DNA of 63,557 nt, the filler included, from Stramenopiles sp. TOSAG23-6 (taxonomy: Eukaryota), in assembly GCA_900128565.1 (NCBI GenBank). It is 52 parts of 52 records of this genome, joined end to end, with 100 filler letters (N's around TTAATTAATTAA, not from the genome) between each part and the next. Parts side by side here need not be neighbours in the genome. Positions count along the whole stretch, not along the records: positions 7,405 to 8,537 come from LT639653.1; 51 more parts are not named here. The stretch is one strand, 5' to 3'. Below, one piece after another: positions 4,966 through 61,076 of this stretch. Below the pieces are notes generated by a model. It was not told the origin of the DNA. It did not search any database and worked only from the letters and a program-made list of their open reading frames with translations. Position 1 is the first letter of the stretch. Each line of letters opens with the position of its first letter. Position numbers and translations under genes: made by a program.

Positions 4966-5745
4966 ATGCTTCATTTTCTGCAGGATTCTCTCTATGCGAG
5001 CCTTCAATTTTTGTTGATCCACATTCTTTCTTATTGCGATTGGGCTGATAGCACCCACATGTATTTTGGAAAAATATGTCAAAAAAATTTAAAATTTTTT
5101 GTTAGGTACAAAATTTTTATAAAAAAAAAAATTCAAATTTTGGAAAAATATGTCAAAAAAATTTAAAAAATTTTGTTAGGTACAAAATTTCGTACGAAAA
5201 AAAAAATTCCAAAAAAATTCCAAAAAAAAAAATAAAATACATTCCTTCTCTGTCGTTTGTTGATATGCTACACATGTGTTTGTATCTATATCTTTTTGTA
5301 ATGATACATCGTTTGTTTTCCTCTTAAAAAGATCTGCACGATCAAGTACGTTTGATTTATCTGAAAAGTCGCAACACCAATAGTTACAACAAGTTGGTGT
5401 TTGATCATCTGCACCGTCAGGTAACTCAAAATTGGTACAGTTTATATTTGGAGCGGTACATTTAAAGTGTGCGGGCACATACAGTGCTCTCATAACATTA
5501 CCACCAACAACTGTACAACAGAAAAGTATCGAGAGAATAGGTAAACATGATCTAGTAGCACGTCCAGTTCTAGCATCAGCATCTCGACAGACTTGAGCAA
5601 ATTCTTGTGGTGACATGACTCCACGTAATCGCCCGTCCATTATATTTCTAGCAAACCTCGTACCAAGAGTATCCTTACAATTACTCCTTGAACCAGTTTC
5701 TGAGATATAAATCGTATTCGGATCTCGGGAAAATAGAGTACCCAT
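4966..5745 (-). CDS. Cys-rich membrane protein with MG start, spliced (intron 5059-5240 GT..AT), 3' partial
   Basis: ORF 5176-5745 joins in phase 1 to exon CGCYQPNRNKKECGS. Confidence 0.65.
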
Positions 5746-7404: not shown

Positions 7405-8537
7405 AAAGTCACTACAACAATGAATGAAAAAGTATGCGAATTAAAAAGGAGTCAAGAACAACTAATCATGACAAAAGAGGAATTGGTAATGATAAAAACG
7501 GAACTTGAATTATTACAATTAGATAACTCTACAATAAAAAAGGAATTGGCACAAAAAAATAGCACGACAAATGCAAGACAAAGTACTCATATGGTTGATG
7601 AATCATTACGTAGGAAAGAACAACAAGTTATTCAATTACAGAATGAGTTAATGCAAAGTCGTGTTTCTATTAATTCTTTATTAGAGGAAAGAAATTCTTC
7701 TCAAAATGAGAGTCATGTCTTAAAAAATAAAGTTGCTGAATTAGAATCAAAATTAAAAGAAATGCAAGCAGTTGATAATAATGAAGATATCGTAGATGAT
7801 GTCTTGCGTAATTCAAATACAAATGAATTAACAAAGGTTGCAGAGGCAGTTCTAAGTATGAGCACTGAGAAATCGACTCAGTTGCAAAAGAGTAATACAA
7901 AATCTGATACAAAACAAGATGAACTAAGCGATGAAAAACAAATAAGTTCTTTACGGAATTCTGGTGCGTATTCACCAAGTGGGAATTCTATTAATAATGT
8001 TCGTTTTCAAAATTAAATTGTTTTTTTTTTCATACGAAATTTTGTACCTAACAAATTTCGAATGTAAAATATTTTTCATAATACATTTTGATGGTACAGA
8101 TAATTTTGGTTTAGATGTTTCAATTCCATCATTAAGTGNNNNNNNNNNNNNNNNAAGTTATGATGACATCGTAAATGAACATAAGATAAATGAGTCAAAA
8201 ATAAACGAAATTCCTACAATGAAGAAAAATAATGAGTTTTTGGATTCAACTGAAGAAAAAAATAATAAACACGAAAACAAAGACTTTCAAACTGAACATC
8301 GACAAAAAGTTTTAATTGAACAATCTAATATAAAGTTACAAGTACAATTAGCTGAATTGCAGGAGTCAAATACAGTTATGAGACTTTCTATAGTTGGTTA
8401 TCAAGAAACAATTGAAGAATTACAAAAAAAATTAAACAAAAATAGTCAAAAACACGAAATACTATCTGAATCATTAGAAAAACTTTTATCATTTTCGAAG
8501 TCTGCTTCAAAAAAAGTAGTGGAAGAGGCTAAAAAAG
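7405..8537 (+). CDS. Coiled-coil protein fragment, intron 7999-8086 (GT..AT)
   Basis: ORF 7420 and the frame of ORF 7964 join in phase 0 at CAT|TTT; nearby AGs are out of phase. Confidence 0.8.
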
Positions 8538-11100: not shown

Positions 11101-11575
11101 TTTATTTTTATTTTTTATTATGTATGGACACAACCACCATACATTCATTTATTTTTGTCCCTAGGAAGACATCCTCTTCCTCCCACCAACTCTTTATTTT
11201 TTTTATTTTTCCCTCTTTTTTTATTTTTATTTTTTATTATGTATGGACACAACCACCATACATTCATTTATTTTTGTCCCTAGGAAGACATCCTCTTCCT
11301 CCCACCAACTCTTTATTTTTTTTATTTTTCCCTCTTTTTTTATTTTTATTTTTTATTATGTATGGACACAACCACCATACATTCATTTATTTTTGTCCCT
11401 AGGAAGACATCCTCTTCCTCCCACCAACTCTTTATTTTTTTTATTTTTCCCTCTTTTTTTATTTTTATTTTTTATTATGTATGGACACAACCACCATACA
11501 TTCATTTATTTTTGTCCCTAGGAAGACATCCTCTTCCTCCCACCAACTCTTTATTTTTTTCATTTTTCCCTCTTT
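11101..11575 (+). repeat. 119-bp near-perfect tandem array (4 copies) with two hairpins
   Basis: Period 119; ATGTATGG-n9-CCATACAT hairpin, ATTTTTG, GTCCCTAG, GGAAGA-n5-TCTTCC hairpin. Confidence 0.95.
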
Positions 11576-12330: not shown

Positions 12331-13460
12331 AGTTAGCTATATCCTCTTGTGGAGATATGTCATCGACAAAGTTAGCTATATCCTCAGTAGTATCGACAGT
12401 TATCTTCATCATGTCAGATTCGGAATTTATACATGTGTTTTCATCTATCGAACTATTCGCTTCATTATCTAGCGAATTTATTAAAGTGGAAATATCTCTT
12501 ACGGCAACATTGGCAAAAAAAGCCGCAGTTTTAACGGCGTATCCAGACTTTGCATTTTGCTGCTGTCTTTTAAAATTAGAATCTACCTCGCGTATAGTTG
12601 CGCGGGATATAAGAGNTGTCAGTTGAGATGTTCGGTTAATGTATCTTTTTTCTAATATATCCCATTGACATTTAATTTTGTGTACAACAGATTTCTTAAT
12701 TTTAGTGCAGGATTGCAATGAACGAAATAAATTGATTTTTACTTTATCGATATTCGATTCAATACTCACACATTGTTCAGTGTAAGTACGCATTGCATTC
12801 TCTAAAAACATAATCTGTTGTTCTATATCTTTGATATAATTCAGTCGGAATTCTTTCATATAGTGCCGATGCACTATAGTCCCTACATCTTCCATAGTCT
12901 GTAGACTGTTGATATTTTCTGTGTGACTTTCCATTGCTGCTTTTGCAGCTGAGGATTTTAAAAGCTTCTCAAGAATTTCACAGCGAAACCTCTCCAATTG
13001 TTGCGGTGCTTCTTCAACTTGAGATAAAAACGATTCATGCTCATCTTCATGCTTATGCATAGGGATACTTCCATGATTAGCATGAAGTGAAGATATTTGA
13101 AATTCTATTCGAAGGAGTCCAGCTTCATGTTTGTGAAAAAATATTTAAAATTTGAAATTCGTTAGGTACGGAATTTTCTATGAAAAAAAAAAGATTTGAA
13201 ATTAATGATGAAAACATACAGCCTTACGGACTCGACTTTCAGCACGACTAACATTTTGTGTTATTTCGTTCAAATCGGTAGTCAAAATATCATCTTCTTC
13301 ATCACTACTCTCGTCAATATCTTCAAAATCAAAAGGAATTTCATTTATATCTTGGTTTATATCTTGGTCGGTAACTGGATCTTCAAAATTATTTATATCT
13401 TGGTGGGTAACTGGATCTTCAAAATTATTTATATCTTGGTGGGTAACTGGATCTTCAAAA
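12331..13460 (-). CDS. Coiled-coil protein fragment, intron 13127-13219 (GT..AT); 36-bp coding repeat at ~13350-13460
   Basis: RVRKA|EAGLLRIEF phase-0 join; the first two downstream AGs are phase 1. Confidence 0.75.
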
Positions 13461-14146: not shown

Positions 14147-14488
14147 CGAGGCGAACAACTCATGNNNNNNTCTTCATTTTTTTGGTATAAAATTCCGTAC
14201 CTAACGAATTTTTGTACTTCGAGCCAGTCCATTATTTGTGTACAAAACTGACAAAATTTCCGAAATTTGTGTGAAATTCGGTAAATTTCCGGAAATTTGA
14301 TTTTCTTTTTCGTACCAAATGGTACAAAATAATTTTTTTACCCCTCATGTTTCGTGAAATTTCGTACAAAGTCAGTTCCTCTGAGAGGAACTGAACTGAA
14401 AAATTTCCCTGCATCGACTCGTTTCGCTGCACCATTCTGTATTAACTTACAAACAAAAAGACCTCTTACATAAATCTCTTATTCTACA

Positions 14489-18230: not shown

Positions 18231-19022
18231 GCAGGTGAAGATGGACCATGAATGATGAAGAAAATATTTTCAAAAGTATACAGCATTGCTAAAAGTTGAA
18301 AAGATTCAATATGGAGATCAAGATATTGTGAAACTACTTTTCCATTCAAGAAAAGTTCTTTGATGTGTTGATATGTTNNNNNNNNNNNNNNNNNNNNNNN
18401 NNNNNNNNNNNNNNNNNNNNNTTAATTAATTAANNNNNNNNNNNNNNNNNNNNNNNNNNNNNNNNNNNNNNNNNNNNTCTTCATTTTGAGTCGTATAAGA
18501 GGAGGAGGTGGTGTTTTAGATTAGTTTTATATGTAGTAGGAAAGAGTTAAGATGAATTTCAATTGAATTTTTCAACGACCGAGGATATATATTTTTGAAA
18601 ATTTGTTAGGTACAACATTTCGTACGAAAAAAAACAAATTAAAGGTAATTTTATAAATCGGAAATCGCCGACCGGCGTCAAAAAAAAGAATCCTTATTTT
18701 TTATTTCTTTTTTGTATAATATAATATTCTTTCATAAATAACATTTATTTTTTTGTTATTTTTGTAGTATGTATGGACAACCACCATACATTCATTTAGT
18801 TAAGGTCCCTATATTATATAATCTCAAATCGTCCGTTAATATTTTTTTCCAAAATAAATACTTCGGATCATAAAAGTTGATCGATCGATAATCAGCCGGT
18901 CAGTCAAAAAAAAATAGAGCAAAAATCCAAAAATAGAAATAAGGTAAACAAGAGAACCTCCTAAGCTACAGTAGATTAAGTATTTCATACTCACTTGAAT
19001 GTAATATAGACTTTTGAACAAC

Positions 19023-25835: not shown

Positions 25836-26960
25836 GTTATTATTGTTATTACTATTGTTATTATTACTATTGTTATTATTGTTATTACTAGTATTATTAT
25901 TATTATTATTATTACTATTGTTATTACTATTATTAGTCCAATCGACCAGAAAAGCAATGACATGCTCCCGTATTAAATTGACTACTTTATATACAACACA
26001 TTCCTTTTCCCATACAGAACACTTTTTCATAATAAAATCTTCAATATTAGAAAGAACCTCTGTTCCAAGCCAATTACCAACAGAACTAACATTTATTTTT
26101 GGTCCTGATTTTTCTGGATAATATTCGCTAAATTGAACACTGAGTACTAAAGGAGGGACATGTACAACACGTATTGAAGACGCTTTCCAAGAAGAAAATG
26201 TTGCATTTCCTAAATATTGATTATTTATAATTTTTGCAATCTCAATATTTTCCTTTTTCTTTTTCTTTTCAAGCAAGACTTCAGTCTTTGCTTCTTTTGC
26301 TAATTGTATTTGTTCCTCTGCATGTTGTTGGGCAAAATAAATAGTTTCTTGTTTATGATTGACTTTTGCCAAAGCTATTCTTGCATCTATATCTAGTGGT
26401 GACGTATAATCGAAATTAACCACTTGTTCTTCTACCTGTTTGTGCTCAATCAATGTGAAAAAATATTTCAAATAAAAAAAATCATTAGGTACAAAATTTC
26501 GTATGAAAAAAAAATCGAAATTGAAATGAAAACGTTCTTGGTTAGTTTTCAATCGCTCAATTTCACGAATTGTTTCTAATGCTTCCAAGTCAGCTACAAT
26601 TGCCCGATGTTCTGCGATCTCTATACATTTTGTGAAAATATTTTAAATTTGAGATTCTTTAGATATGAAATATAAGAAAAAAAATCATTAGGTACAAAAT
26701 TTCGTACCAAAAAAAAAAAATTGAAATTCATGATAAAAACGTACATGGATAAGTTATCTAAATCATAAATAGACATTCCTTCGCTCTGAAGTAATTGAAA
26801 CGTTTCTTCAAGCGAAAATAACTTTTCTTGAGCTTCTAAAAGAGGAACATTTGTTTGTTTATTTTGTTTCATATTCTTTTGTGCATTATTATTTTGTGTC
26901 ATGGCTTGCTTTGACTCCACTGGAACTGCCACACTTTGCTTTGACTCCACTGGAACTGCC
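25836..26960 (-). CDS. RWD-domain protein fragment (RNF14/ITT1-like), introns 26623-26744 (GT..AT) and 26537-~26445 (GA donor)
   Basis: HVPPLVLSVQFSEYYP...WL...W...VVYKVVNLIRE RWD motif; poly-Asn tract. Confidence 0.7.
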
Positions 26961-29900
26961 NNNNNNNNNNNNNNNNNNNNNNNNNNNNNNNNNNNNNNNN
27001 NNNNTTAATTAATTAANNNNNNNNNNNNNNNNNNNNNNNNNNNNNNNNNNNNNNNNNNNNGTTATTATTGTTATTACTATTGTTATTATTACTATTGTTA
27101 TTATTGTTATTACTAGTATTATTATTATTATTATTATTACTATTGTTATTACTATTATTAGTCCAATCGACCAGAAAAGCAATGACATGCTCCCGTATTA
27201 AATTGACTACTTTATATACAACACATTCCTTTTCCCATACAGAACACTTTTTCATAATAAAATCTTCAATATTAGAAAGAACCTCTGTTCCAAGCCAATT
27301 ACCAACAGAACTAACATTTATTTTTGGTCCTGATTTTTCTGGATAATATTCGCTAAATTGAACACTGAGTACTAAAGGAGGGACATGTACAACACGTATT
27401 GAAGACGCTTTCCAAGAAGAAAATGTTGCATTTCCTAAATATTGATTATTTATAATTTTTGCAATCTCAATATTTTCCTTTTTCTTTTTCTTTTCAAGCA
27501 AGACTTCAGTCTTTGCTTCTTTTGCTAATTGTATTTGTTCCTCTGCATGTTGTTGGGCAAAATAAATAGTTTCTTGTTTATGATTGACTTTTGCCAAAGC
27601 TATTCTTGCATCTATATCTAGTGGTGACGTATAATCGAAATTAACCACTTGTTCTTCTACCTGTTTGTGCTCAATCAATGTGAAAAAATATTTCAAATAA
27701 AAAAAATCATTAGGTACAAAATTTCGTATGAAAAAAAAATCGAAATTGAAATGAAAACGTTCTTGGTTAGTTTTCAATCGCTCAATTTCACGAATTGTTT
27801 CTAATGCTTCCAAGTCAGCTACAATTGCCCGATGTTCTGCGATCTCTATACATTTTGTGAAAATATTTTAAATTTGAGATTCTTTAGATATGAAATATAA
27901 GAAAAAAAATCATTAGGTACAAAATTTCGTACCAAAAAAAAAAAATTGAAATTCATGATAAAAACGTACATGGATAAGTTATCTAAATCATAAATAGACA
28001 TTCCTTCGCTCTGAAGTAATTGAAACGTTTCTTCAAGCGAAAATAACTTTTCTTGAGCTTCTAAAAGAGGAACATTTGTTTGTTTATTTTGTTTCATATT
28101 CTTTTGTGCATTATTATTTTGTGTCATGGCTTGCTTTGACTCCACTGGAACTGCCACACTTTGCTTTGACTCCACTGGAACTGCCNNNNNNNNNNNNNNN
28201 NNNNNNNNNNNNNNNNNNNNNNNNNNNNNTTAATTAATTAANNNNNNNNNNNNNNNNNNNNNNNNNNNNNNNNNNNNNNNNNNNNGTTATTATTGTTATT
28301 ACTATTGTTATTATTACTATTGTTATTATTGTTATTACTAGTATTATTATTATTATTATTATTACTATTGTTATTACTATTATTAGTCCAATCGACCAGA
28401 AAAGCAATGACATGCTCCCGTATTAAATTGACTACTTTATATACAACACATTCCTTTTCCCATACAGAACACTTTTTCATAATAAAATCTTCAATATTAG
28501 AAAGAACCTCTGTTCCAAGCCAATTACCAACAGAACTAACATTTATTTTTGGTCCTGATTTTTCTGGATAATATTCGCTAAATTGAACACTGAGTACTAA
28601 AGGAGGGACATGTACAACACGTATTGAAGACGCTTTCCAAGAAGAAAATGTTGCATTTCCTAAATATTGATTATTTATAATTTTTGCAATCTCAATATTT
28701 TCCTTTTTCTTTTTCTTTTCAAGCAAGACTTCAGTCTTTGCTTCTTTTGCTAATTGTATTTGTTCCTCTGCATGTTGTTGGGCAAAATAAATAGTTTCTT
28801 GTTTATGATTGACTTTTGCCAAAGCTATTCTTGCATCTATATCTAGTGGTGACGTATAATCGAAATTAACCACTTGTTCTTCTACCTGTTTGTGCTCAAT
28901 CAATGTGAAAAAATATTTCAAATAAAAAAAATCATTAGGTACAAAATTTCGTATGAAAAAAAAATCGAAATTGAAATGAAAACGTTCTTGGTTAGTTTTC
29001 AATCGCTCAATTTCACGAATTGTTTCTAATGCTTCCAAGTCAGCTACAATTGCCCGATGTTCTGCGATCTCTATACATTTTGTGAAAATATTTTAAATTT
29101 GAGATTCTTTAGATATGAAATATAAGAAAAAAAATCATTAGGTACAAAATTTCGTACCAAAAAAAAAAAATTGAAATTCATGATAAAAACGTACATGGAT
29201 AAGTTATCTAAATCATAAATAGACATTCCTTCGCTCTGAAGTAATTGAAACGTTTCTTCAAGCGAAAATAACTTTTCTTGAGCTTCTAAAAGAGGAACAT
29301 TTGTTTGTTTATTTTGTTTCATATTCTTTTGTGCATTATTATTTTGTGTCATGGCTTGCTTTGACTCCACTGGAACTGCCACACTTTGCTTTGACTCCAC
29401 TGGAACTGCCNNNNNNNNNNNNNNNNNNNNNNNNNNNNNNNNNNNNNNNNNNNNTTAATTAATTAANNNNNNNNNNNNNNNNNNNNNNNNNNNNNNNNNN
29501 NNNNNNNNNNGTTATTATTGTTATTACTATTGTTATTATTACTATTGTTATTATTGTTATTACTAGTATTATTATTATTATTATTATTACTATTGTTATT
29601 ACTATTATTAGTCCAATCGACCAGAAAAGCAATGACATGCTCCCGTATTAAATTGACTACTTTATATACAACACATTCCTTTTCCCATACAGAACACTTT
29701 TTCATAATAAAATCTTCAATATTAGAAAGAACCTCTGTTCCAAGCCAATTACCAACAGAACTAACATTTATTTTTGGTCCTGATTTTTCTGGATAATATT
29801 CGCTAAATTGAACACTGAGTACTAAAGGAGGGACATGTACAACACGTATTGAAGACGCTTTCCAAGAAGAAAATGTTGCATTTCCTAAATATTGATTATT

Positions 29901-32900
29901 TATAATTTTTGCAATCTCAATATTTTCCTTTTTCTTTTTCTTTTCAAGCAAGACTTCAGTCTTTGCTTCTTTTGCTAATTGTATTTGTTCCTCTGCATGT
30001 TGTTGGGCAAAATAAATAGTTTCTTGTTTATGATTGACTTTTGCCAAAGCTATTCTTGCATCTATATCTAGTGGTGACGTATAATCGAAATTAACCACTT
30101 GTTCTTCTACCTGTTTGTGCTCAATCAATGTGAAAAAATATTTCAAATAAAAAAAATCATTAGGTACAAAATTTCGTATGAAAAAAAAATCGAAATTGAA
30201 ATGAAAACGTTCTTGGTTAGTTTTCAATCGCTCAATTTCACGAATTGTTTCTAATGCTTCCAAGTCAGCTACAATTGCCCGATGTTCTGCGATCTCTATA
30301 CATTTTGTGAAAATATTTTAAATTTGAGATTCTTTAGATATGAAATATAAGAAAAAAAATCATTAGGTACAAAATTTCGTACCAAAAAAAAAAAATTGAA
30401 ATTCATGATAAAAACGTACATGGATAAGTTATCTAAATCATAAATAGACATTCCTTCGCTCTGAAGTAATTGAAACGTTTCTTCAAGCGAAAATAACTTT
30501 TCTTGAGCTTCTAAAAGAGGAACATTTGTTTGTTTATTTTGTTTCATATTCTTTTGTGCATTATTATTTTGTGTCATGGCTTGCTTTGACTCCACTGGAA
30601 CTGCCACACTTTGCTTTGACTCCACTGGAACTGCCNNNNNNNNNNNNNNNNNNNNNNNNNNNNNNNNNNNNNNNNNNNNTTAATTAATTAANNNNNNNNN
30701 NNNNNNNNNNNNNNNNNNNNNNNNNNNNNNNNNNNGTTATTATTGTTATTACTATTGTTATTATTACTATTGTTATTATTGTTATTACTAGTATTATTAT
30801 TATTATTATTATTACTATTGTTATTACTATTATTAGTCCAATCGACCAGAAAAGCAATGACATGCTCCCGTATTAAATTGACTACTTTATATACAACACA
30901 TTCCTTTTCCCATACAGAACACTTTTTCATAATAAAATCTTCAATATTAGAAAGAACCTCTGTTCCAAGCCAATTACCAACAGAACTAACATTTATTTTT
31001 GGTCCTGATTTTTCTGGATAATATTCGCTAAATTGAACACTGAGTACTAAAGGAGGGACATGTACAACACGTATTGAAGACGCTTTCCAAGAAGAAAATG
31101 TTGCATTTCCTAAATATTGATTATTTATAATTTTTGCAATCTCAATATTTTCCTTTTTCTTTTTCTTTTCAAGCAAGACTTCAGTCTTTGCTTCTTTTGC
31201 TAATTGTATTTGTTCCTCTGCATGTTGTTGGGCAAAATAAATAGTTTCTTGTTTATGATTGACTTTTGCCAAAGCTATTCTTGCATCTATATCTAGTGGT
31301 GACGTATAATCGAAATTAACCACTTGTTCTTCTACCTGTTTGTGCTCAATCAATGTGAAAAAATATTTCAAATAAAAAAAATCATTAGGTACAAAATTTC
31401 GTATGAAAAAAAAATCGAAATTGAAATGAAAACGTTCTTGGTTAGTTTTCAATCGCTCAATTTCACGAATTGTTTCTAATGCTTCCAAGTCAGCTACAAT
31501 TGCCCGATGTTCTGCGATCTCTATACATTTTGTGAAAATATTTTAAATTTGAGATTCTTTAGATATGAAATATAAGAAAAAAAATCATTAGGTACAAAAT
31601 TTCGTACCAAAAAAAAAAAATTGAAATTCATGATAAAAACGTACATGGATAAGTTATCTAAATCATAAATAGACATTCCTTCGCTCTGAAGTAATTGAAA
31701 CGTTTCTTCAAGCGAAAATAACTTTTCTTGAGCTTCTAAAAGAGGAACATTTGTTTGTTTATTTTGTTTCATATTCTTTTGTGCATTATTATTTTGTGTC
31801 ATGGCTTGCTTTGACTCCACTGGAACTGCCACACTTTGCTTTGACTCCACTGGAACTGCCNNNNNNNNNNNNNNNNNNNNNNNNNNNNNNNNNNNNNNNN
31901 NNNNTTAATTAATTAANNNNNNNNNNNNNNNNNNNNNNNNNNNNNNNNNNNNNNNNNNNNGTTATTATTGTTATTACTATTGTTATTATTACTATTGTTA
32001 TTATTGTTATTACTAGTATTATTATTATTATTATTATTACTATTGTTATTACTATTATTAGTCCAATCGACCAGAAAAGCAATGACATGCTCCCGTATTA
32101 AATTGACTACTTTATATACAACACATTCCTTTTCCCATACAGAACACTTTTTCATAATAAAATCTTCAATATTAGAAAGAACCTCTGTTCCAAGCCAATT
32201 ACCAACAGAACTAACATTTATTTTTGGTCCTGATTTTTCTGGATAATATTCGCTAAATTGAACACTGAGTACTAAAGGAGGGACATGTACAACACGTATT
32301 GAAGACGCTTTCCAAGAAGAAAATGTTGCATTTCCTAAATATTGATTATTTATAATTTTTGCAATCTCAATATTTTCCTTTTTCTTTTTCTTTTCAAGCA
32401 AGACTTCAGTCTTTGCTTCTTTTGCTAATTGTATTTGTTCCTCTGCATGTTGTTGGGCAAAATAAATAGTTTCTTGTTTATGATTGACTTTTGCCAAAGC
32501 TATTCTTGCATCTATATCTAGTGGTGACGTATAATCGAAATTAACCACTTGTTCTTCTACCTGTTTGTGCTCAATCAATGTGAAAAAATATTTCAAATAA
32601 AAAAAATCATTAGGTACAAAATTTCGTATGAAAAAAAAATCGAAATTGAAATGAAAACGTTCTTGGTTAGTTTTCAATCGCTCAATTTCACGAATTGTTT
32701 CTAATGCTTCCAAGTCAGCTACAATTGCCCGATGTTCTGCGATCTCTATACATTTTGTGAAAATATTTTAAATTTGAGATTCTTTAGATATGAAATATAA
32801 GAAAAAAAATCATTAGGTACAAAATTTCGTACCAAAAAAAAAAAATTGAAATTCATGATAAAAACGTACATGGATAAGTTATCTAAATCATAAATAGACA

Positions 32901-34310
32901 TTCCTTCGCTCTGAAGTAATTGAAACGTTTCTTCAAGCGAAAATAACTTTTCTTGAGCTTCTAAAAGAGGAACATTTGTTTGTTTATTTTGTTTCATATT
33001 CTTTTGTGCATTATTATTTTGTGTCATGGCTTGCTTTGACTCCACTGGAACTGCCACACTTTGCTTTGACTCCACTGGAACTGCCNNNNNNNNNNNNNNN
33101 NNNNNNNNNNNNNNNNNNNNNNNNNNNNNTTAATTAATTAANNNNNNNNNNNNNNNNNNNNNNNNNNNNNNNNNNNNNNNNNNNNGTTATTATTGTTATT
33201 ACTATTGTTATTATTACTATTGTTATTATTGTTATTACTAGTATTATTATTATTATTATTATTACTATTGTTATTACTATTATTAGTCCAATCGACCAGA
33301 AAAGCAATGACATGCTCCCGTATTAAATTGACTACTTTATATACAACACATTCCTTTTCCCATACAGAACACTTTTTCATAATAAAATCTTCAATATTAG
33401 AAAGAACCTCTGTTCCAAGCCAATTACCAACAGAACTAACATTTATTTTTGGTCCTGATTTTTCTGGATAATATTCGCTAAATTGAACACTGAGTACTAA
33501 AGGAGGGACATGTACAACACGTATTGAAGACGCTTTCCAAGAAGAAAATGTTGCATTTCCTAAATATTGATTATTTATAATTTTTGCAATCTCAATATTT
33601 TCCTTTTTCTTTTTCTTTTCAAGCAAGACTTCAGTCTTTGCTTCTTTTGCTAATTGTATTTGTTCCTCTGCATGTTGTTGGGCAAAATAAATAGTTTCTT
33701 GTTTATGATTGACTTTTGCCAAAGCTATTCTTGCATCTATATCTAGTGGTGACGTATAATCGAAATTAACCACTTGTTCTTCTACCTGTTTGTGCTCAAT
33801 CAATGTGAAAAAATATTTCAAATAAAAAAAATCATTAGGTACAAAATTTCGTATGAAAAAAAAATCGAAATTGAAATGAAAACGTTCTTGGTTAGTTTTC
33901 AATCGCTCAATTTCACGAATTGTTTCTAATGCTTCCAAGTCAGCTACAATTGCCCGATGTTCTGCGATCTCTATACATTTTGTGAAAATATTTTAAATTT
34001 GAGATTCTTTAGATATGAAATATAAGAAAAAAAATCATTAGGTACAAAATTTCGTACCAAAAAAAAAAAATTGAAATTCATGATAAAAACGTACATGGAT
34101 AAGTTATCTAAATCATAAATAGACATTCCTTCGCTCTGAAGTAATTGAAACGTTTCTTCAAGCGAAAATAACTTTTCTTGAGCTTCTAAAAGAGGAACAT
34201 TTGTTTGTTTATTTTGTTTCATATTCTTTTGTGCATTATTATTTTGTGTCATGGCTTGCTTTGACTCCACTGGAACTGCCACACTTTGCTTTGACTCCAC
34301 TGGAACTGCC
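25836..34310. repeat. Seven identical copies of one 1125-nt contig (period 1225 including linker)
   Basis: Identical sequence and ORFs, each copy bounded by linkers. Confidence 0.97.
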
Positions 34311-34515: not shown

Positions 34516-35398
34516 AATACTTTTTCACAATATATGGGCAGAGTATAAAGCTTCATTTACAAAAAGTGGATTTGGAAGTGTATTTCATGACAAAAATACA
34601 AATAATTTAATAATAGACGAATCTCTAAAAGAACACGAAAAAATTGAAAAAATGGAAAAAATTGAAAAAATTGAAAAAATTGAAAAAATTGAAAAAATTA
34701 CAACTTCCGGAATTAAATTAGGAAATGATATTCAAATGAATGCTACACGAAATATAAATTTCTTGAAAAATACAGCAAATGATATATACTCAGATCGTAC
34801 TAACTTACTGAATATTGCAAAACAACGCGCTGAAATTTTTAAAGAAGTGTATGTTGTTTTTTTTTGAATTTTTTTTTTTTTTCGTACGAAAATTCGTACC
34901 TAACAAAAAAAAATAATTTTTGAAATTTTGAAATATTTTCACAAAAATACAGAGCATCTGAATTTACAACTGCATACAAAACATCACGAAATAATGCAGA
35001 AATATCACAAAATTCTTTTTTATCAACTGAAATTATTGAAACATTTAATAGTGATGTTAATTCAGGGAAAAAAACACCAACAGAAGCTGGAATTGATGTA
35101 GTCAAAACTGTTATTAATGAGGTACGTTTGTATCATTCATTTTTTTTTTTGCATAGTAAATTTTTCAAAAAAAAAAAAAATTTTTAATTTTTCAAAAAAA
35201 AAAAAATTTCATACGAAATTTCATACCTAACAAAAACATTCTTTTTGAAATATTTTTTTAGTACAGACAAAACAAAATACAAAGACAAATATAGATGCAA
35301 TACACAATGTTGCCAATGAAGCTTATGATGATCGAGATGAAATTAGTGAAATTATTCAAAAAAAAACAAAAGAAACTTTACACAATGCAAAATCAGAT
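34516..35398 (+). CDS. Multi-exon hypothetical protein; GT-AG introns 34849-34952 and 35122-35266 carrying the branch box
   Basis: Frame-preserving joins KEV|ASEF and INE|TKQN. Confidence 0.75.
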
Positions 35399-39483: not shown

Positions 39484-40336
39484 TTCACCAATACGTAAAA
39501 GATGGATTATGAAAGAATTATCTTCACTGCATTGTGATAACAGAAATAATAGATTGGTTTTTTATCATGAAATTTTTGAGTGTTTTCGAAAAGTAATTAT
39601 GAATGCATTTCCAATGATTGCGTATCCATGGCCATCGGTTCAAATGTATGTTTTTTATTTTTTTTTTTTCGTAAATATTTTTTTGGTTTCGTACGAAATT
39701 TTGTACCTAACAATTTTTTTTTTTTTTACTAACCAAAAAAAAAAAAAAAAATTTGAAATATTTTTACAAAGTACATGTTTCTTGGTTTATTAATAACATT
39801 TTGTTACCTTGGGTATTATTATACATCTCAACCATCCTTATTTGATAATGTAAATATTTTGCGTTGTGGGTCGCTTATAGTGTCAATTATTAATTTGTTT
39901 GTGGGTATATTTTATCAAAACAAAACATTACCTCACAAAGCACAAGAAATATTTGAAGCAAATGCACCAATGTTTTTATTAATTTTGCATGGTATTTGGT
40001 TTTTTATAGCATCTGCGTCTTGTACTGCAATGCGATGGGGAAGAAAACTTCCAATTTTATTAGAGCCGAAAAAGCTCGATGATGTTGATGAGGAGCGGAT
40101 GAAGAAAGTTATGCTTGAAGTCTCGACTCAATTTATTATTGAAGAAGATTTAGGGATTGAAATCTATGAAGAAAATAAAACAATGAAACAAATTATTGTT
40201 CAAATGTCGGATCATCACAATTATAAATCTAAAGTAATACGCAAATTAAATCATAGAGCAAAAGCACCATCCGAAGAAGCAAAGAGGAATGAAATACGAA
40301 AAAATAATGTAGATAATGAAATGGGTGTACGTGAGA

Positions 40337-40587: not shown

Positions 40588-41357
40588 AGGATGCATGCAA
40601 ATGCGGGAAAAAACTATCAAAGCGTGCTACATCATTACTAATTAAGTTAAAAATTTGTCCACTTGTTGAATTTTGTGTCACAGATAGTCTTAATTTCAAT
40701 AATTTTAAATTAATTAGCCCACAAGTTGCTTGTCGAGCATTCCAACCGGCCTTCATTGTTAGGTACTGTATTTTGGAAAAATAAATTCGATTTTTTGTAA
40801 AAAAAAAAAAATCGTTAGGTAAAAAATTTACTATAAAAAAAAAATTTCGATTTTTTTTTTAAAATAAAACGTGCATAGACGCGATGGTGGACAATAATTT
40901 GAAATGCTGCGGTACAAACTAAAGCAAAAGCATACAATAGACCTTTATACATTTGTCTGTTTTTAGACTCTGTTAACCATGTGAGTATTAAGTGTAAGCA
41001 TACAGGTTGAAATATTCGAGTGACCGATTCTAACCAAGTCCATAAAGCTGATTGAAAAAACTCATATCGATTCGCTTCAAATAAAGCTCTAGCAAAAGAT
41101 GAGGATCTTTCTTCACATTTAGCTTTCTGTAGTTCCACATGCCAGGCATCTGATAACTTGGTAATTACATTTTCTGCATGGTCTTGAGAAGGTACGTTAT
41201 CCAAGTCTAACATTGTTAATGCTTTTACACTGCCAAGACGAAGAAGAGGCCACACAAAGCAAAATAATACTTTTGATAACCACGAGAGAGAGTCATTGTC
41301 CATGCCAGCTTGTTTCTCCTTTCCTACGGAAACTGCTGCAATTTGTGAGACACTCAT
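40588..41357 (-). CDS. ABC transporter subfamily C (MRP/ABCC4-like), N-terminal exons; GC-AG intron 40766-40874
   Basis: SWLSKVLFCFVWPLLRLG; HHRVY|YLTMKAGW...GQIFNLISNDVARFD. Confidence 0.92.
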
Positions 41358-44292: not shown

Positions 44293-45273
44293 ATGTCTCA
44301 TATAATCATCAACTACATTTCGAAAACATTTACTGTATGGAATTGTATTACATTCAATTGGTTTGATCTTTTGTATAGTTTTGAGAATATCTCTTACATC
44401 GGATACATCAGATGTACTATCTCTAGACAAAACATCACAATTTGATAATTTTGTTTCCTCTTTATATTTTTCGATTTCTACTTCAACAATAGATTGTATT
44501 GTAAAAAAATATTTTTTTCATTCGAAATGGATCAAAAACAAATGTTACATAAAAACAAATTGTAAAAGAATACACCTGAAAAACAAATGTTNNNNNNNNN
44601 NNNNNNNNNNNNNNNNNNNNNNNNNNNNNNNNNNNNNNNNNNNNNNNNNNNNNNNNNNNNNNNNNNNNNNNNNNNNNNNNNATCCCATCTTGATTGAAAT
44701 ATTGAACGTTTCACATGTAGTGAAAAAAAAAATTAATTTTTAAAAATTCATTAGGTACAAAATTTCGTATGAAAAAAAAAATTCGAAATTGAAAAAAAAT
44801 TAAACATACATCATCATTCACCAACAAATATTTAGCATACTTTTCCTTATTAAAAAAAGCCATCAACCAAGGCATCGAAAAGGTTGCAATCACATTTTTT
44901 TTACAATTCTCCAATCTGTAATTATTCTTATTATTCTTATATCTAGGAATTACATCAATATTTAATCCAACATAAAAACATCTAAAGATTCTTTCAAAAA
45001 GTAATAGTATGTATTGTGAAAAATATTTTTTTTTTGTAAAATTTGTTAGGTACAAAATNNNNACGAAAAATAAATTCGAAATTAAAAAAAAAAAAACATA
45101 CATAGACGGTGCAATTCGAACTAGAAATATATTTTTCTTCTTTTTAGTGTTGGTGTTGGTATTTGAATTTTTTTTAAAGTAAGTGCTACATAGCGCTGTT
45201 CCTATAGCCTTCATAAGAGGTAAAAAATCACCAGTAATTGTTTTTTGTCGTGCCATTGCCTGTCGAATCCGGG
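44293..45273 (-). CDS. Multi-exon hypothetical protein; introns 45009-45101, 44715-44809 and 44193-44292, all ending YAT
   Basis: RIAPS|ILLLFE and LVNDD|VKRSIFQ joins. Confidence 0.65.
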
Positions 45274-45413: not shown

Positions 45414-46533
45414 TTATTTTGATTTTTTTCAGATATTTTGTTGTTTTGATTTTTTTTTGGTAAAACACCACCAACATGTAATGATGTGTTATTTTCATCA
45501 TTATCAATTTTTCCATGAGTATTCCATAAAATTGCTGATGTTTGTTCATCATTAACCATTTTGGGTACAACATCATCATTAAACGAAAAAATATTTATAA
45601 AACCTAGATTTCGTGCATATATTGTCATTTGCTGTACAATGACTTCGTCATCGGAAGCACTGTATATATAGGATATATATAGGAAAATAGTACAACATTT
45701 AAAAAAAAAGTACAATTTTTTTTTTTTTTGTTATTAAAAAAAAAAAAAAAACCTAACCCTAATATAAAATTTTCTATACAAAAAAAAACGTACATAAAAA
45801 TTGATTTGATATTTGTCTTTTTTTTAAGTATTTCAATATGATTTACATAATCTGTTAATGGTGCATTGACACGATCATGACGCTTCCTGGAATCTCCAGT
45901 ACGAATATGTACCCCCACGATTGGAGCAGCTTTGTGCAAAGATTCAAAAAAATGTATTGAATTTTGAAATATCCATTTTTTTGGTTTCCATAACCATAAT
46001 TGAATTGAAGCAAACCAAAGTCCTGAAATCATTATTCTATTTTTTTTATTCTTTTTATTATTTTTATTATTTTTTGTAGAGTTTGTAGGGTTAGGGTTTG
46101 TAGGGTTAGGGTTTGTAGGGTTAGGGTTATAATCATGTAGTGTTGGACTTTTGCAAGAAGCTTGAAGAATTGATCTTGGTTTAAAAAAACCAATTCTAAA
46201 TATATTTTTTTCTATATTTTTTTCTATATTTGTTGTATTTGTTGTATTTGTTGTATTTGTTGTATTTGTTGTATTTTTCGTTTTTGTCAAAACCGAATTT
46301 GTACTTAATTTTGTACCTAAATGAAAAAGAGGAATGTCTTCTACAGAATTCTTTGTATGAAGTGTGAAAAAATATTTAAAAAAAAAAAAAAAAAAAATTA
46401 GGTTTTTAGGTTTACGTACAAAATTTCGTACGAAAAAAAAACCAAAAAAAAAAAAAAAAATTTCAAAAAAAAAAAACCAAAAAAAAAAAAAAAATTTCAA
46501 AAAAAAAAAAATCAACCTACATATGTTGTACAA
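45414..46533 (-). CDS. Fucosyltransferase (FUT8/NodZ-like); introns 46357-46520 (GT..AT) and 45660-45793 (GT-AG)
   Basis: PIVGVHIRTGD motif I and KSIF|IASDD motif II. Confidence 0.75.
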
Positions 46534-51561: not shown

Positions 51562-52560
51562 GTATGAACTCCTTGTTACAGATAGGATGTAGAGTCCGTG
51601 TTTTGTATGGAATTGATTTTATCAATTCCAATGATAGTAGTACGTTTTCATCATCAATTTTTCAAATGTATATATATTTATTGTACCCACTCCAAAGATT
51701 TTGTACCTAACGATTTTCAAAATTAGAACATATTTTTTTTTTCGTACGAAATGTTGTACCTAACGATTTTCAAAATTAGAACATATTTTTTCACAATACT
51801 GTAATTCCACACGAATATTTTGGCGAAGCGATTGAAAATTCCACAACCAATGTTGTCATTGATTTTGGCGATTCTGGCCAGTTTGCATTTGCAAAAATTA
51901 AAAATAGTAATGGTATGTCGTATATTGACCCTGACGGATGGAAAGTTTCAATGTTTGTGAATGATAACACTAAAGCTCATAATGGATCTAAACAAATATT
52001 TGTCGATGAAACTGCGACGTCTTCAGTGGTTGATGTCGAAAAAAGTATAGTTAAGTTGCAATGTGGACTCGCTGTTCGAGTGACATACGATGAGAGTTTT
52101 CGACATGCATTTCCTGAGGAAAAGTATGTATGTTTTATTTTTTTTTTTAACAAAAAATCGATTTTTTTTCGTATGAAATTTTGTACCTAACAAATTTTAG
52201 TTTTTTTTTTGAAATATTTTTCCAAAATATATGTCTTCACTGGTAAAATTTTATATTGTAGTGGGACAAATGTTGAGGTAGATTTTGGAAACAAAATAAA
52301 AATCGATTTCTCTCACGATGGATTTGGTGGTTTCACTGACGCTGACGGATGGATGGTCACTTTTGAAATCGTCTCAAAATCTCGTAATTCGAATAAATTG
52401 ATAAAACAGAAATTACCGATGTCAGTGAATAAGAATGTTGTATATAAAAAATCATCTACTGCTACTACGAAAAACGTAGATGCAGGTTTGAAGTCTATAA
52501 AAGTGAAAGAATCTCGTAAAGTAAAGGATAAGCCTTTTCACAAATTGTCCAAGCGCGAAT
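51562..52560 (+). CDS. Multi-exon protein with a duplicated beta domain; introns 51640-51801 (GT..TG), 52128-52232 (GT..AT), donor 52561 (GA)
   Basis: Internal repeats align (YFGEAIENSTTNVVIDFG / FTGKILYCSGTNVEVDFG) only with the non-canonical acceptors. Confidence 0.75.
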
Positions 52561-54333: not shown

Positions 54334-54546
54334 AAAAAAAATGTATTTGGTTAGGTACAAAATTTTGTACGAAACAAAAAGAGAAATATTTTCAGTTTAA
54401 TATTCATTAAAAAATCTTTTTTTTTTTTACTCTTTTTTTATTTGATTTTTACAAAATTTTGTAATTGTCTTATAAAGAAATGGTATAAAATGTATAATCT
54501 GTAATTGCACTTTTGCATTCATTCAATCTTGTTTTTTTTATCATCA

Positions 54547-55158: not shown

Positions 55159-56274
55159 ATCTTCATCATCAACAATATCATTATTATTATCATCATTAAC
55201 AATATCATTAGTAGTAGTAGTAGTAGTAGTAGTAATACTATCATCAACAATATCATTATTATTATTAGTAGTTGTAAAACCATCATCAACAATATCATTA
55301 TTACTAATAGTAATACTACTACTACTAGTAAAACTATCAATATGATCATCATTTTTAATATTCTCATCATTCATTAATTTCTTTCTATGAAGAGCCATTG
55401 GAGGAGTTAATAAAGAAAAATGTTGTTTTTCATTACTTATTTTTTTTTTATCCGTTTCAGATAATTTTTTAAACGTTAAAACTAACAAATGAATAAAAAT
55501 TTCAGTTGATTTTTTGTTGTGTTTTGAAGCAGCCAAAAATAAACGCATGCATATTTAGATAATATGTCAAATAGAAAATTTTGTTAGGTATTTATTATTA
55601 TTATTATTAGTAGTAGTAGTAGTATTGAAAAAAAAAATTAATAAAAAAAAAAAAAAAAATGAAAACGTACATCACCAATTGTAGACCAACTTTTTGCATT
55701 AGAATCATCATCAGAATCATCATTTGTAGTCGTTTCAGGTATTTGAGTATCATTTGATACATTTAAAACATTTGAACCATTTGAATCATTTGTAGTTTCA
55801 CTTTGATGATTTTCTTCATTTTGTTCAAAATTATTATTTTTTTTCATAGCAAATTTTGTACCTAATGTATTTTCTTCATTCATATCATTTTTTTCAACAA
55901 ATATTGATGTTAAATCATCGCCATACGTTTCTTGTAATTTTTGATTTAATATTTTTTGTCTGTTTTTATATGCTTTTTCAATTGTTAGTATATCATTTAA
56001 TTTGTTTTTATTGTGTTTTGTATAAAAAATTACTAATTTATCATGAAATGTTGTATCATTATTATTATTGTTGTTGTTGGTAGTAGTATTGTTATTATTG
56101 TTGTTATTATTATTATTGGTGGTGGTCGGAGTAGTTGTTGTTGTTGGTGGTGGTGTATTAAAATCATTTTCATTATCAACAATATTATTATTATTAGTAG
56201 TAAAACTATCATCATCAACAATATTATTATTATTGGTAGTAGTAGTAGTAAAACTATCACCTTCATCATCAACA
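55159..56274 (-). CDS. Low-complexity (D/N/T-rich) protein fragment; intron ~55546-55670 without a usable AG
   Basis: ORFs 55638-55883 and 55111-55548 flank the AT|GTACGT donor and a TACCTAAC. Confidence 0.55.
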
Positions 56275-60106: not shown

Positions 60107-61076
60107 CATGTCGATGGACATCAACATTGTCATATTAGAACGTGTATACGTGAAAATCTTGCTCATACATTTGCCACCGCTGGAGTTCGTTTTGTACGTA
60201 CGTTTTAGTTTTTTTCAATTTTTATCTACAGTTTTTTTTTCGTACGAAATTTCGTACCTAACGTTTTTTTTTTTTTTAAAGAAAATATTTTTTCACAATA
60301 TATGTATCCCAATAGAATGTAACAGCTTAAAAACATTATGTATTTCGTGTGGTCATGTTGTAGGAGAAGCTTCAAGTGCTCGTCAAGTGTATGAAAAATA
60401 TGGAATGAAGACTCCTTCATTGTTTGTCGGTCTAAGTTTTTGTGGTTCAACATACTCAGTACACGAAATGTATGTTTTTTTTTTTTTTTTCATGAATTTC
60501 AAATTTAATTTTTTTTTTATTTTTTTTTTTTTTTNTTTTTTTTTTAGGAAAAAAATGAAATTTTCATATTAGAAAAATAACGCAAATCTGCACAATAGTA
60601 AACAAAAACAAATTTTGAATTTTTTTCTGACCAATTTAACATGTCTNCATATTTTTTCACGATATTTGATTTGTGCAATAGAAAAACAACTTTTTGAAAA
60701 AAAAAAAAAAAATATTGGAGATGAAATCATTTTGGATGATAGAAATTCGTTAGGTACGAAAATAAGTACGAAAATAAATTCCCCAAGTATAAAAACGGAT
60801 CGTACTATTTTAGAAATAATGGTTCACCCGGGTGAACTCCCTAACCCTAATAAAAACCCTAAGAACCCTAACCCTAATAAAAACCATAAAAAACCTAAAC
60901 ATCTTAAAAATTGTAAAAACCCTAAAAAAAGTGATGAATTTTTATATGATAGTTTTCATATTTCTCCTGATCGATTTGAAGAATTAAAAACACTTTGTGA
61001 TCCAATACTGATTGAATATATGAACAATAACTATGAACTTGTTTCTTCATTAGAAGCATACAATAAAATAAAATAA
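60107..61076 (+). CDS. YDJC: YdjC-family carbohydrate deacetylase; intron 60198-60303 (GT..AT) and intron from 60470
   Basis: HVDGHQHCH, GVRFV|RIPIE, LEIMVHPG, DRFEELKTLCDP. Confidence 0.88.

What the first reader, a model, noticed from the sequence alone, without database searches (positions are those of the whole stretch)
8027..8052. Long conserved branch-site box TTTCGTACGAAATTTTGTACCTAAC in nearly all introns
Roughly 30 introns on unrelated contigs carry this ~25-nt motif in the sense orientation (e.g. ~985, 5176, 8030, 13161, 26486, 26688, 34881, 35478, 39688, 44235, 48945, 52170, 52598, 54148, 60238, 61288). It is far longer than the usual 7-nt TACTAAC. It contains a 12-nt palindrome (TTTCGTACGAAA) and two GTAC cores 12 nt apart. 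Inference: it may pair extensively with a variant U2 (predicted GUAGGUAC in place of GUAGUAUC), bind a dedicated factor compensating for weak splice ends, or be the relic of an introner family.
Basis: partly seen in the sequence, partly recalled or inferred. Interest (0 to 1): 0.88.

Follow-up and report, generated by a model that had tools for sequence, protein, structure and literature searches.

The report
Repeated intron family with conserved box
The 25-base box is the best-kept core, including the likely branch site, of one family of about 100-base look-alike introns that fills the genes of an uncultured marine protist and seems often to end in AT instead of the usual AG.

Summary
The box is real: 35 hits at up to 3 mismatches against 0 expected. 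Twelve of these are extra copies in seven identical contigs. There are 31 unique copies at up to 5 mismatches.

It is not a free-standing signal. The whole intron of about 90-145 nt is stereotyped: G(T/A/C)AYGTTTT, T-run, box ending CCTAAC, T-run, AAATATTTTT(C)AC..ACA(T/G). Copies also lie antisense inside ORFs (3) and outside ORFs (3). Mismatches pile up at CpG positions (43 of 68), while TACCTAA is almost invariant.

Best reading: an introner-like intron family whose box carries the branch site.

Unexpected extra: 9 of 12 complete members end in AT, not AG, and 11 of 12 are in frame. For one of them, seven YdjC-like homologues show that removing exactly 60198-60303 (GT..AT) is right: 115.5 bits against 97.1 for the best GT/GC-AG choice.

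No snRNA gene lies in the window, so the variant-U2 idea stays untested. No RNA joint was obtained.

The parts
8028..8052 (+). The box of the finding (1 mismatch to the consensus)
7999..8086 (+). Whole intron around the finding, 88 nt, GTTCGT..ATACAT. In frame. The nearby AG (8098) fits only with a donor 4 nt further in
60198..60303 (+). 106-nt family member in a YdjC-like gene, GTACGT..ATATAT. Its removal is fixed by homology (registers 0 to +3, none ending in AG)
60470..60667 (+). Next intron of the same gene, 198 nt removed, no clear box. The register is open and no top-scoring register ends in AG
39646..39776 (+). Family member, 131 nt, GTATGT..GTACAT, 4-nt direct repeat AT|GT at the joints
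52128..52232 (+). Family member, 105 nt, GTATGT..ATATAT, 5-nt direct repeat at the joints
44715..44809 (-). Family member, 95 nt, GTATGT..CTACAT. No in-frame GT/GC-AG choice was found
45009..45101 (-). Family member, 93 nt, GTATGT..ATACAT (the box holds 4 N)
13127..13219 (-). Family member, 93 nt, GTATGT..AAACAT
26623..26744 (-). Family member, 122 nt, GTACGT..ATGTAT (in the contig present 7 times)
26445..26537 (-). Family member with 5' GAACGTTTT. The 3' end is not settled (GAG| or later AGs)
5059..5240 (-). 182-nt member with a 74-nt internal tandem duplication (two branch-site boxes). The frame call is a tie
34849..34952 (+). Family member with canonical ends, GTATGT..ATACAG
35122..35266 (+). 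Family member with canonical ends, GTACGT..GTACAG
40766..40874 (-). Family member, GCACGT..ATACAG (GC-AG), in an ABC-transporter-like gene
55842..55866 (+). Box of a full-length degenerate copy lying antisense inside a 211-codon ORF of the - strand (read as ..LGTKF..)
60749..60773 (-). Box lying antisense inside the YdjC-like ORF of the + strand. It coincides with an insert of about 25 aa relative to homologues
46297..46321 (+). Box-like copy antisense to a 302-codon read-through ORF of the - strand, about 90 nt from a sense copy (46411-46435)
14181..14205 (+). Box copy (5 mismatches) downstream of the HOP-like gene, with no intron context
18605..18629 (-). Box copy (1 mismatch) outside long ORFs, with no 5' splice motif upstream
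54350..54374 (-). Box copy (1 mismatch) between two convergent genes, with no 5' splice motif upstream

Best explanation
The box is the most conserved internal segment of one family of homologous, short (about 90-145 nt), T-rich spliceosomal-type introns. The family has multiplied through the genes of an AT-rich, uncultured marine protist: an introner-like element.

Each member carries its own splicing signals:
- a yeast-like 5' site, G(T/A/C)AYGTTTT;
- the box, whose last bases TACCTAAC act as the branch site (inferred);
- a U-rich stretch, AAATATTTTT;
- a family-typical 3' end, ..ACA(T/G).

The rest of the box is two tandem copies of a 12-mer (TTTCGTACGAAA / TTTTGTACCTAA). It is inherited family sequence that decays mainly at its CpGs. 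It may also serve the element's spread, but nothing here shows an RNA structure or U2 pairing.

Excision removes exactly the segment from the 5' G to the terminal A(T/G). This restores the reading frame, and in most members the intron then has a non-AG (AT) 3' end.

Shown: the family architecture, its density, the orientation classes, the CpG decay, the frame rule, and one homology-fixed junction. Inferred: use of the branch site, mobility and its mechanism, and splicing in RNA.
For: 1. Whole-intron likeness between unrelated genes: alignments of 32 and of 12 members. The 3' motif follows the box.
2. Density: about 40 box-bearing copies in about 52 kb of unique contigs. Sixteen of 19 intron-like GTAYGTTT sites have the box or its core.
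3. Copies that cannot be acting as branch sites: 3 antisense in long ORFs and 3 outside ORFs, of 31. The antisense copy in the YdjC-like gene matches an insert relative to homologues: 29.8 bits unspliced against 40.8 with 75 nt removed.
4. Internal tandem duplications: 5063-5209, period 74; double boxes at 35442/35476 and 51699/51752.
5. Forty-three of 68 box mismatches fall on 6 CpG-related positions. Positions 18-24 (TACCTAA) have 2 mismatches in 217 cells.
6. The box ends 34-65 nt before the 3' end.
7. Frame rule: 11 of 12 members are in frame, P about 5e-5. Eight of the 9 whose end was set by the consensus alone are in frame.
8. Homology: all 7 homologues read [FY]xR[IV]PxE across the junction. 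Of 797 stop-free junctions, the best removes 60198-60303, at 115.5 bits. The best of the 8 GT/GC-AG choices scores 97.1.
9. The same intron type occurs in another gene on a public metagenome contig (L001).
10. The box region is matched by 643, 111, 35 and 854 distinct contigs of four seawater RNA runs.
11. Introners with TSDs, TIRs and rare 5' sites are documented in many marine protists (passages of PMC9860276).
Against: - No RNA joint across any member was obtained. The one contig that could be laid was not covered on its exons.
- Mobility is inferred. No empty site, no ortholog comparison and no autonomous element was seen.
- The flanks give a 2-5-nt direct repeat (AT|GT) in 9 of 12 members. 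It matches the family's own ends, so a target-site duplication cannot be told from a site preference. Terminal inverted repeats are short: GTAT..ATAC pairs in the minimum-energy fold of only 4 of 12 members.
- If every intron of the genome has this form, a lineage-wide constraint cannot be fully separated from common descent.
- For 7 of 13 members an in-frame GT-AG choice exists with a donor 4 nt further in (GTTTT). Frame alone therefore does not prove AT ends.
- In 3 members (52167, 60238, 26687) I chose among neighbouring ATs knowing the frame.
- The contigs come from a highly fragmented assembly with Ns.
Confidence: 0.7

Rival explanations
1. Lineage-wide splicing code. In this organism every intron must carry a long 5' site, the 25-nt box and the 3' motif to be spliced. 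The likeness then reflects constraint, not multiplication of one element.
For: Sixteen of 19 intron-like sites have the box or its core. The intron-like sites without a box still show a degenerate ..ACCTAAC / GTACTTAAC. TACCTAA is nearly invariant.
Against: - Copies occur antisense in ORFs and outside ORFs, where no splicing constraint acts.
- Non-signal segments such as CAATTTCGAA are shared.
- Tandem duplications occur inside introns.
- Ten of 31 copies have G5 changed to A, and there is no compensating change.
Confidence: 0.15
2. Extended pairing with a variant U2 snRNA. U2 of this organism would read GUAGGUAC and pair with GUACCUAAC and beyond.
For: GTACCTAAC is the best-kept part of the box. 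The core CUAAC is the usual branch motif (recalled knowledge).
Against: - No U2 gene is available.
- By my own comparison with the recalled GUAGUA region of canonical U2, CUAAC already pairs with it, so a variant is not needed.
- The 5' half of the box varies freely at CpGs.
Confidence: 0.08
3. A dedicated protein binds the palindrome TTTCGTACGAAA or the tandem 12-mers. It could act on RNA to define the branch region or the odd 3' end, or on DNA as the element's transposase site.
For: The box holds a perfect 12-nt palindrome and a tandem 12-mer. The non-CpG positions of the first half are more than 90% kept. This is compatible with the best explanation.
Against: No protein candidate was found. 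The copies were chosen by likeness to the box, which inflates its conservation. A recent origin explains the same data.
Confidence: 0.15
4. Minor-spliceosome-like (U12-type) introns that have been amplified. This would fit a long conserved 5' site, a long conserved branch box and a flexible 3' end.
For: GTATGTTTT shares 7 of 9 bases with the recalled U12-type 5' consensus GTATCCTTT. U12-type introns are known to tolerate non-AG ends, and a large expansion is reported in Physarum (search listing only).
Against: The box lies 34-65 nt from the 3' end, whereas U12-type branch sites lie about 10-20 nt away (recalled). GTAYGT plus CTAAC fits the major type. No U11, U12, U4atac or U6atac gene was seen, though the window is small.
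Confidence: 0.05

Closest known systems
Introners / introner-like elements (Micromonas, Aureococcus, Symbiodinium, many marine MAGs; PMC9860276, passages read)
   Same: Many homologous short introns at unrelated gene positions. They carry or recruit splice sites, are AT-richer than exons, have short direct repeats at the joints, include rare GC/GA 5' sites, and occur in marine protists.
   Different: Here most members appear to end in AT rather than AG. The TSD and TIR are not resolved. Density is very high, about 1 per 1.3 kb in this window. Whether this family is already in the published catalogues could not be checked, because the supplements are closed.
Non-canonical introner elements of Amoebophrya (PMC7789003, passages read)
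   Same: Repeated introns with 3-5-nt direct repeats overlapping the exon/intron borders, complementary intron ends, non-GT-AG termini, and a marine protist host.
   Different: Amoebophrya elements have 8-20-nt inverted repeats and no clear terminal dinucleotides. Here the 5' end is a strong GTAYGT, a clear branch box is present, the end pairing is weak, and one terminal pair (GT..AT) dominates.
Yeast-type major-spliceosome introns (GUAUGU ... UACUAAC ... YAG; recalled knowledge)
   Same: A strong 5' GTAYGT and a CTAAC branch motif at a comparable distance from the 3' end.
   Different: The conserved stretch is 25 nt, not 7. The 3' YAG is missing in 9 of 12 members. The introns are homologous to each other.
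Euglenid nonconventional introns (PMC12501133, abstract read; PMC6221363 and PMC12621601, passages read)
   Same: Non-GT-AG borders, short direct repeats at the borders, and proposed pairing of the intron ends.
   Different: The defining signature 5'-N3CDG..CH'GN5-6|R is absent. Here GT is at the 5' end and a canonical branch motif is present.

Membership tests
Introner (introner-like element) family | Many introns of one genome homologous to each other along their length, at unrelated gene positions | tested here: met
   Alignments. There are 31 unique boxes. Sixteen of 19 intron-like sites carry the box or its core.
Introner (introner-like element) family | Removed from the mRNA so that the reading frame is restored | tested here: inconclusive
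   Eleven of 12 members are in frame. One junction is fixed by 7 homologues. No RNA joint was obtained.
Introner (introner-like element) family | Signs of transposition: target-site duplication and/or terminal inverted repeats | tested here: inconclusive
   A direct repeat of 2-5 nt (AT|GT) occurs in 9 of 12 members, but it equals the family's own ends. GTAT..ATAC ends pair in the minimum-energy fold of 4 of 12 members.
Introner (introner-like element) family | Copies also outside introns or in the other orientation | tested here: met
   Three copies are antisense in long ORFs and 3 are outside ORFs, of 31.
Introner (introner-like element) family | Lineage- or strain-specific intron positions (recent gain) | not testable with these tools
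   No genome and no relatives are held. The metagenome scan gave one further copy only.
Major (U2-type) spliceosomal intron | 5' GT/GC with a U1/U6-matching hexamer | tested here: met
   In one search, 21 of 32 rows have G[TAC][AT][CT]GT upstream. The 5' bases are GT in most, GA in 2 (26484, 52597), GC in 1 (40814) and AT in 1 (54147).
Major (U2-type) spliceosomal intron | Branch motif YURAY upstream of the 3' end | tested here: met
   CTAA is invariant and the last base is C in 24 of 31 copies. The motif lies 34-65 nt before the 3' end. Its use as the branch point was not tested.
Major (U2-type) spliceosomal intron | 3' terminal AG | tested here: not met
   Nine of 12 complete members end in AT under the only register that fits all. 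For 60198-60303, homology excludes every AG choice by 18 bits or more.
Minor (U12-type) intron | 5' [AG]TATCCTT, branch box TCCTTAAC about 10-20 nt from the 3' end (recalled definition), and minor snRNAs | tested here: not met
   The 5' end is GTAYGTTTT, the box is TACCTAAC, and it lies 34-65 nt from the end. No minor snRNA is in the window. The full genome was not testable.
Euglenid nonconventional intron | 5'-N3CDG ... CH'GN5-6|R signature (PMC12501133 abstract) | tested here: not met
   The ends are G(T)AYGT and ..ACA(T/G). No CAG/CTG pair lies at those positions.

The most novel reading that the evidence does not exclude
Almost the whole intron complement of this marine protist descends from one introner. 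Its members are spliced with a canonical 5' GT and branch site but a 3' terminal AT (GT-AT introns as the majority class). That would imply a spliceosome with altered 3'-site recognition, or 3'-site choice set by the element itself, for example by its conserved ..AAAATACAT end or its box.
Probability: 0.35. Interest if true: 0.8.

Novelty: new variant of a known kind. Interest (0 to 1): 0.6.

Why it matters
Introners are the leading explanation for bursts of intron gain. A family this dense, about one copy per 1.3 kb of this window, would show an intron complement being made or remade by one element. It comes with clean, strong 5' and branch signals and mostly non-AG 3' ends.

It would also offer a natural test of how the second splicing step picks its 3' site when AG is absent. 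The box gives a simple probe (a 19-25-mer) to find the organism's introns in marine metagenomes and metatranscriptomes. It also warns that gene callers using the GT-AG rule will mis-annotate this lineage.

Tried and rejected
- **Whole genome and relatives:** none held.
- **Earlier notes of the scan:** nothing found.
- **RNA evidence:** On the single contig 34411-35535 the exons had next to no cover and no joint matched an intron. This says nothing about splicing either way.
- **The search for homologous proteins:** three queries gave no hits.
- **PDB searches** with the two short YdjC-like exons gave nothing useful. **Pfam** on exon pieces gave mostly nothing; YdjC scored only E = 0.16 on the C-terminal piece.
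- **Metagenome scan** with a 19-mer: 2 loci, of which one is a chance match in a bacterial gene (L002).
- **Hairpin GTACGA/TTGTAC inside the box** (my idea): 79.7% of cells pair, but this does not exceed the shuffles (394 of 500 shuffles were as high), so I rejected it as a conserved structure.
- **Pairing of the intron ends:** weak.
- **Model with the donor at GTTTT (+4) and a downstream AG:** it fits 7 of 13 members and fails for the rest. In 40814 and 60238 it deletes conserved residues.
- **AT-AC register:** possible for only 5 of the 9 AT-type members.
- **An automatic rule for the 3' end** was too brittle, giving 5 of 7 in frame with many introns unscored.
- **Organism:** not identified. 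The Atlas hit is a BRISC/BRCA1-A member-1-like protein of plants and animals. The one named YdjC-like homologue is from a choanoflagellate transcriptome. Neither places the organism. A diplonemid origin was considered from the literature, but nothing in the sequence supports it.
- **Literature search for the box string** returned only unrelated primer and sequence matches.

Full report
**What the window is.** The 63.5-kb window is not one locus. It is 52 contigs of 1.11-1.14 kb joined by N44-TTAATTAATTAA-N44 linkers. Contigs 25836..34310 are seven identical copies of one contig. GC content is 22-36%. The ORFs are eukaryotic: ankyrin, OGT-like TPR, tandem SH2, STI1/HOP, MFS and FGGY. No whole genome is held. 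DNA of this sequence is held by small runs of one coded organism and by seawater metagenomes, and parts of it by seawater metatranscriptomes. The source is therefore a marine, uncultured-type protist. I could not place it further.

**The observation.**
- The 25-mer has 35 matches at up to 3 mismatches and none in 100 shuffles.
- Twelve of the 35 are extra copies from the duplicated contig, which leaves 23 unique loci.
- At up to 5 mismatches there are 44 matches, and 31 unique copies after dropping the palindromic re-reading at 54351.
- A looser search for the 12-mer core finds further cut or degenerate copies, among them 5942, 39347, 39430, 45046, 51516, 51699, 55042 and 62292. That makes about 40 family copies in about 52 kb of unique sequence.

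**What surrounds the box.** Aligning the copies with their flanks shows that the whole intron is stereotyped. The order is:
- exon | G(T/A/C)A(C/T)GTTTT,
- a T-run, often with CAATTTCGAA,
- the box ending in CCTAAC,
- (G/A)A and a T-run,
- (T)GAAATATTTTT(C)AC..,
- a short tail ending ..ACA(T/G) | exon.

Twelve complete members are 88-182 nt long. The box begins 16-100 nt after the 5' motif, mostly 29-45 nt, and ends 34-65 nt before the 3' end. Of 24 GTAYGTTT sites in unique contigs, 19 look like intron starts, and 16 of those have the box or its core downstream. The other three (45793-, 60470+, 61418+) are T-rich introns with at most a degenerate ..CCTAAC.

**Classes of copies.** The 31 unique boxes fall into four classes:
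- 23 lie in the sense strand of an intron with a recognisable 5' motif. One search found 21 by pattern. To these I add 37628, with GTGAGT, and 54147, with ATATGT.
- 2 are cut by a contig start but are followed by the 3' motif and an ORF (34428, 61284).
- 3 lie antisense inside long ORFs of the other strand: 46297, 55842 and 60749, with opposite-strand read-through of 302, 211 and 142 codons.
- 3 lie outside long ORFs without any 5' splice motif: 14181, 18605 and 54350.

The antisense copies are read as ..LGTK.. in the host ORF. In the YdjC-like gene the antisense copy coincides with an insert of about 25 residues relative to homologues. The profile score rises from 29.8 to 40.8 bits when 75 nt are removed. 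Two introns hold tandem duplications of the box-to-3' part: 5063-5209, period 74, and 51699/51752. A third has two boxes 34 nt apart, at 35442 and 35476.

**How the box varies.** Across the 31 copies there are 68 mismatches to the consensus. Forty-three fall on six positions that form, or would form, CpG (4, 5, 8, 9, 16, 17). Examples are G5 to A in 10 copies and T16 read as C in 7. Positions 18-24 (TACCTAA) have 2 mismatches in 217 cells.

The box reads as two tandem 12-mers, TTTCGTACGAAA and TTT(T/C)GTACCTAA. The copies were chosen by likeness to the whole 25-mer, so absolute conservation is inflated, but the contrast between positions is not. This pattern fits a recently multiplied sequence that decays at CpGs, with constraint on the branch-like end.

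A hairpin between the two GTAC cores appears in single-sequence folds. It has no covariation support: 79.7% of cells pair, and 394 of 500 shuffles reach that value.

**The ends of the introns.** This was not part of the finding, but it bears on 'weak splice ends'.

The 5' end is a strong GTATGT or GTACGT. Two members start GA, one GC and one AT. The family's 3' end is mostly ..ACAT or ..ATAT, not AG.

I took the segment from the 5' G to the terminal A(T/G):
- 11 of 12 complete members join the flanking ORFs in frame (P about 5e-5). The twelfth, 5175, is a tie of 39 against 40 codons.
- For 9 of the 12 the end was set by the consensus alone, and 8 of those 9 are in frame. For 52167, 60238 and 26687 I chose among neighbouring ATs knowing the frame.
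- Nine of the 12 end in AT and three in AG.

Frame fixes only the length. Registers shifted by the shared bases at the joints are equivalent:
- 9 of 12 members share 2-5 bases, typically AT|GT.
- An AT-AC register is possible for 5 of the 9 AT-type members, but not for 13161, 60238, 52167 or 26687.
- A model with the donor 4 nt further in (GTTTT) and a downstream AG is in frame for 7 of 13 and fails for the others.

**Homology test of one junction.** A search of 1.84 billion representatives with the 54-residue exon 60306-60467 found 9 proteins at E up to 0.001. One of them carries the source name ChbG/UPF0249 deacetylase, and one comes from a choanoflagellate transcriptome. I fetched seven of the nine, leaving out P0004 (1058 aa, 4 short stretches) and P0008 (71 aa). 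All seven read ..[FY]xR[IV]PxE.. where the window has ..GVRFV | intron | IPIE...

I built a profile from the seven and scored all 797 stop-free, in-frame junctions around the intron:
- The best, at 115.5 bits, removes exactly 106 nt: 60198-60303, GTACGT..ATATAT. Three equivalent registers exist, none ending in AG. The product reads GVRFVRIPIE.
- The best of the 8 GT/GC-AG choices scores 97.1. The two choices that use the family 5' site score 92.2 and 90.6.

For the next intron of the gene, every top solution removes 198 nt. The register is open within about 1 bit, and again no top solution ends in AG.

At least one family member is therefore excised at a non-AG 3' end, unless the assembly is wrong at that spot. 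This rests on protein homology, not on RNA.

**Abundance elsewhere.** A 19-mer of the box scanned over the metagenome collection gave two loci. L002 is a chance match inside a bacterial gene. L001 carries the same intron type (GTATGTTTT.., box, GAAATATTTTT) after an exon of a different gene.

When contig 34411-35535 was laid on four seawater RNA runs, its exons were barely covered and no intron joint was seen. The last box and its 3' flank (35469-35535) were matched by 643, 111, 35 and 854 distinct contigs. Summed depth there reached 88,630, against about 1-5 on the exons, and the loose ends were T-rich and family-like. These are contigs laid at 90% likeness, summed over loci and perhaps over organisms. 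They show that box-bearing sequence is present in very many different transcribed or contaminating loci in seawater RNA libraries, and nothing more.

No snRNA gene lies in the window, either at Rfam gathering scores or at E up to 1. The single weak hit, mir-11 at 14105-14149, is an inverted repeat. The variant-U2 idea therefore cannot be tested here. From recalled knowledge, CUAAC already fits the canonical U2 GUAGUA region, and I see no extended pairing of the upstream box with the flanking canonical U2 sequence. A box-binding factor remains possible and untested.

**Comparison with what is known.**
- *Introners.* These are homologous introns spread by transposon-like elements. They are documented in many marine protists, with 3-9-bp TSDs, TIRs, varied recruitment of splice sites and up to 40-50% GA/GC 5' sites (passages of PMC9860276). 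The curation rules of a later survey list only AG and AC as accepted 3' ends (passage of PMC12130899).
- *Amoebophrya.* It has repeated non-canonical introns with 3-5-nt direct repeats over the borders and 8-20-nt inverted repeats (passages of PMC7789003).
- *Euglenids.* Their nonconventional introns follow a different signature (abstract of PMC12501133). Diplonemid non-canonical introns are GC-rich at their ends (passages of PMC12621601).

The present family shares the introner logic. It differs in combining yeast-like 5' and branch signals with a mostly AT 3' end.

I found no paper that names this box. One search looked for the sequence strings, and searched on introners and non-canonical introns. 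The supplementary catalogues that could hold it are closed, so 'not yet described' is unproven.

**Verdict.** The box is best explained as the conserved core, with the branch site, of an introner-like intron family (confidence about 0.7). The long conservation comes mainly from common descent plus constraint on TACCTAAC, not from a shown new pairing. The likely GT-AT excision is the most surprising element and needs RNA proof.

Noticed in passing
25836-34310: Seven identical 1125-base contigs stand one after another in the window, so the assembly was not de-replicated. This inflates any motif count (14 of the 35 box hits).
   Followed up: yes
6172-7304 and 56375-57489: Two contigs consist wholly of a 97-base satellite (11.6 and 11.3 copies, 79-85% matches), in opposite orientation.
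   Followed up: partly
11101-11592: A 119-base tandem repeat (4.1 copies, 99% matches) that is open in one reading frame.
   Followed up: no
60815-60870; also about 45760 and about 61435: Telomere-like CCCTAA/TTAGGG repeats lie inside the YdjC-like ORF, where they read as PNPNKNPKNPNPNK, and inside two introns.
   Followed up: no
55842-55866, 46297-46321, 60749-60773: Antisense copies of the intron element are read through in frame by host ORFs, giving ..LGTK(F/L/I).. peptides. In the YdjC-like gene this is an insert of about 25 aa relative to homologues. A GTACGA..TATTTTAG intron on the host strand is possible there (35.5 bits against 29.8 unspliced).
   Followed up: partly
43252-43265 (- strand): The OGT-like gene changes frame between its TPR part and its catalytic part with overlapping ORFs and no family intron. 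By my recollection of OGT, not tested by any search, a stretch present in other OGTs seems to be missing. This could be a misassembly, a deletion or a box-less intron.
   Followed up: no
Box positions 4-5, 8-9, 16-17 in all copies: Substitutions concentrate at CpG (43 of 68). This suggests cytosine methylation and deamination in this organism's genes or elements.
   Followed up: partly
L001:1-1076: On this public metagenome contig, the first about 180 bases are a eukaryotic exon plus a family intron. The rest is AT-rich sequence of another kind and ends in adapter-like bases, so the contig is probably chimeric.
   Followed up: no
14105-14149: A perfect inverted repeat (aagaactgttacc/ggtaacagttctt) downstream of the HOP-like gene is the only weak Rfam hit (mir-11, E = 0.015, below the gathering score).
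   Followed up: no
51509-52625: The gene on this contig is built of tandem protein repeats (..LQxG..VRV.Y.. / ..DFG..DGW..), each preceded by a family intron. Some introns may therefore have been copied together with their exons.
   Followed up: partly
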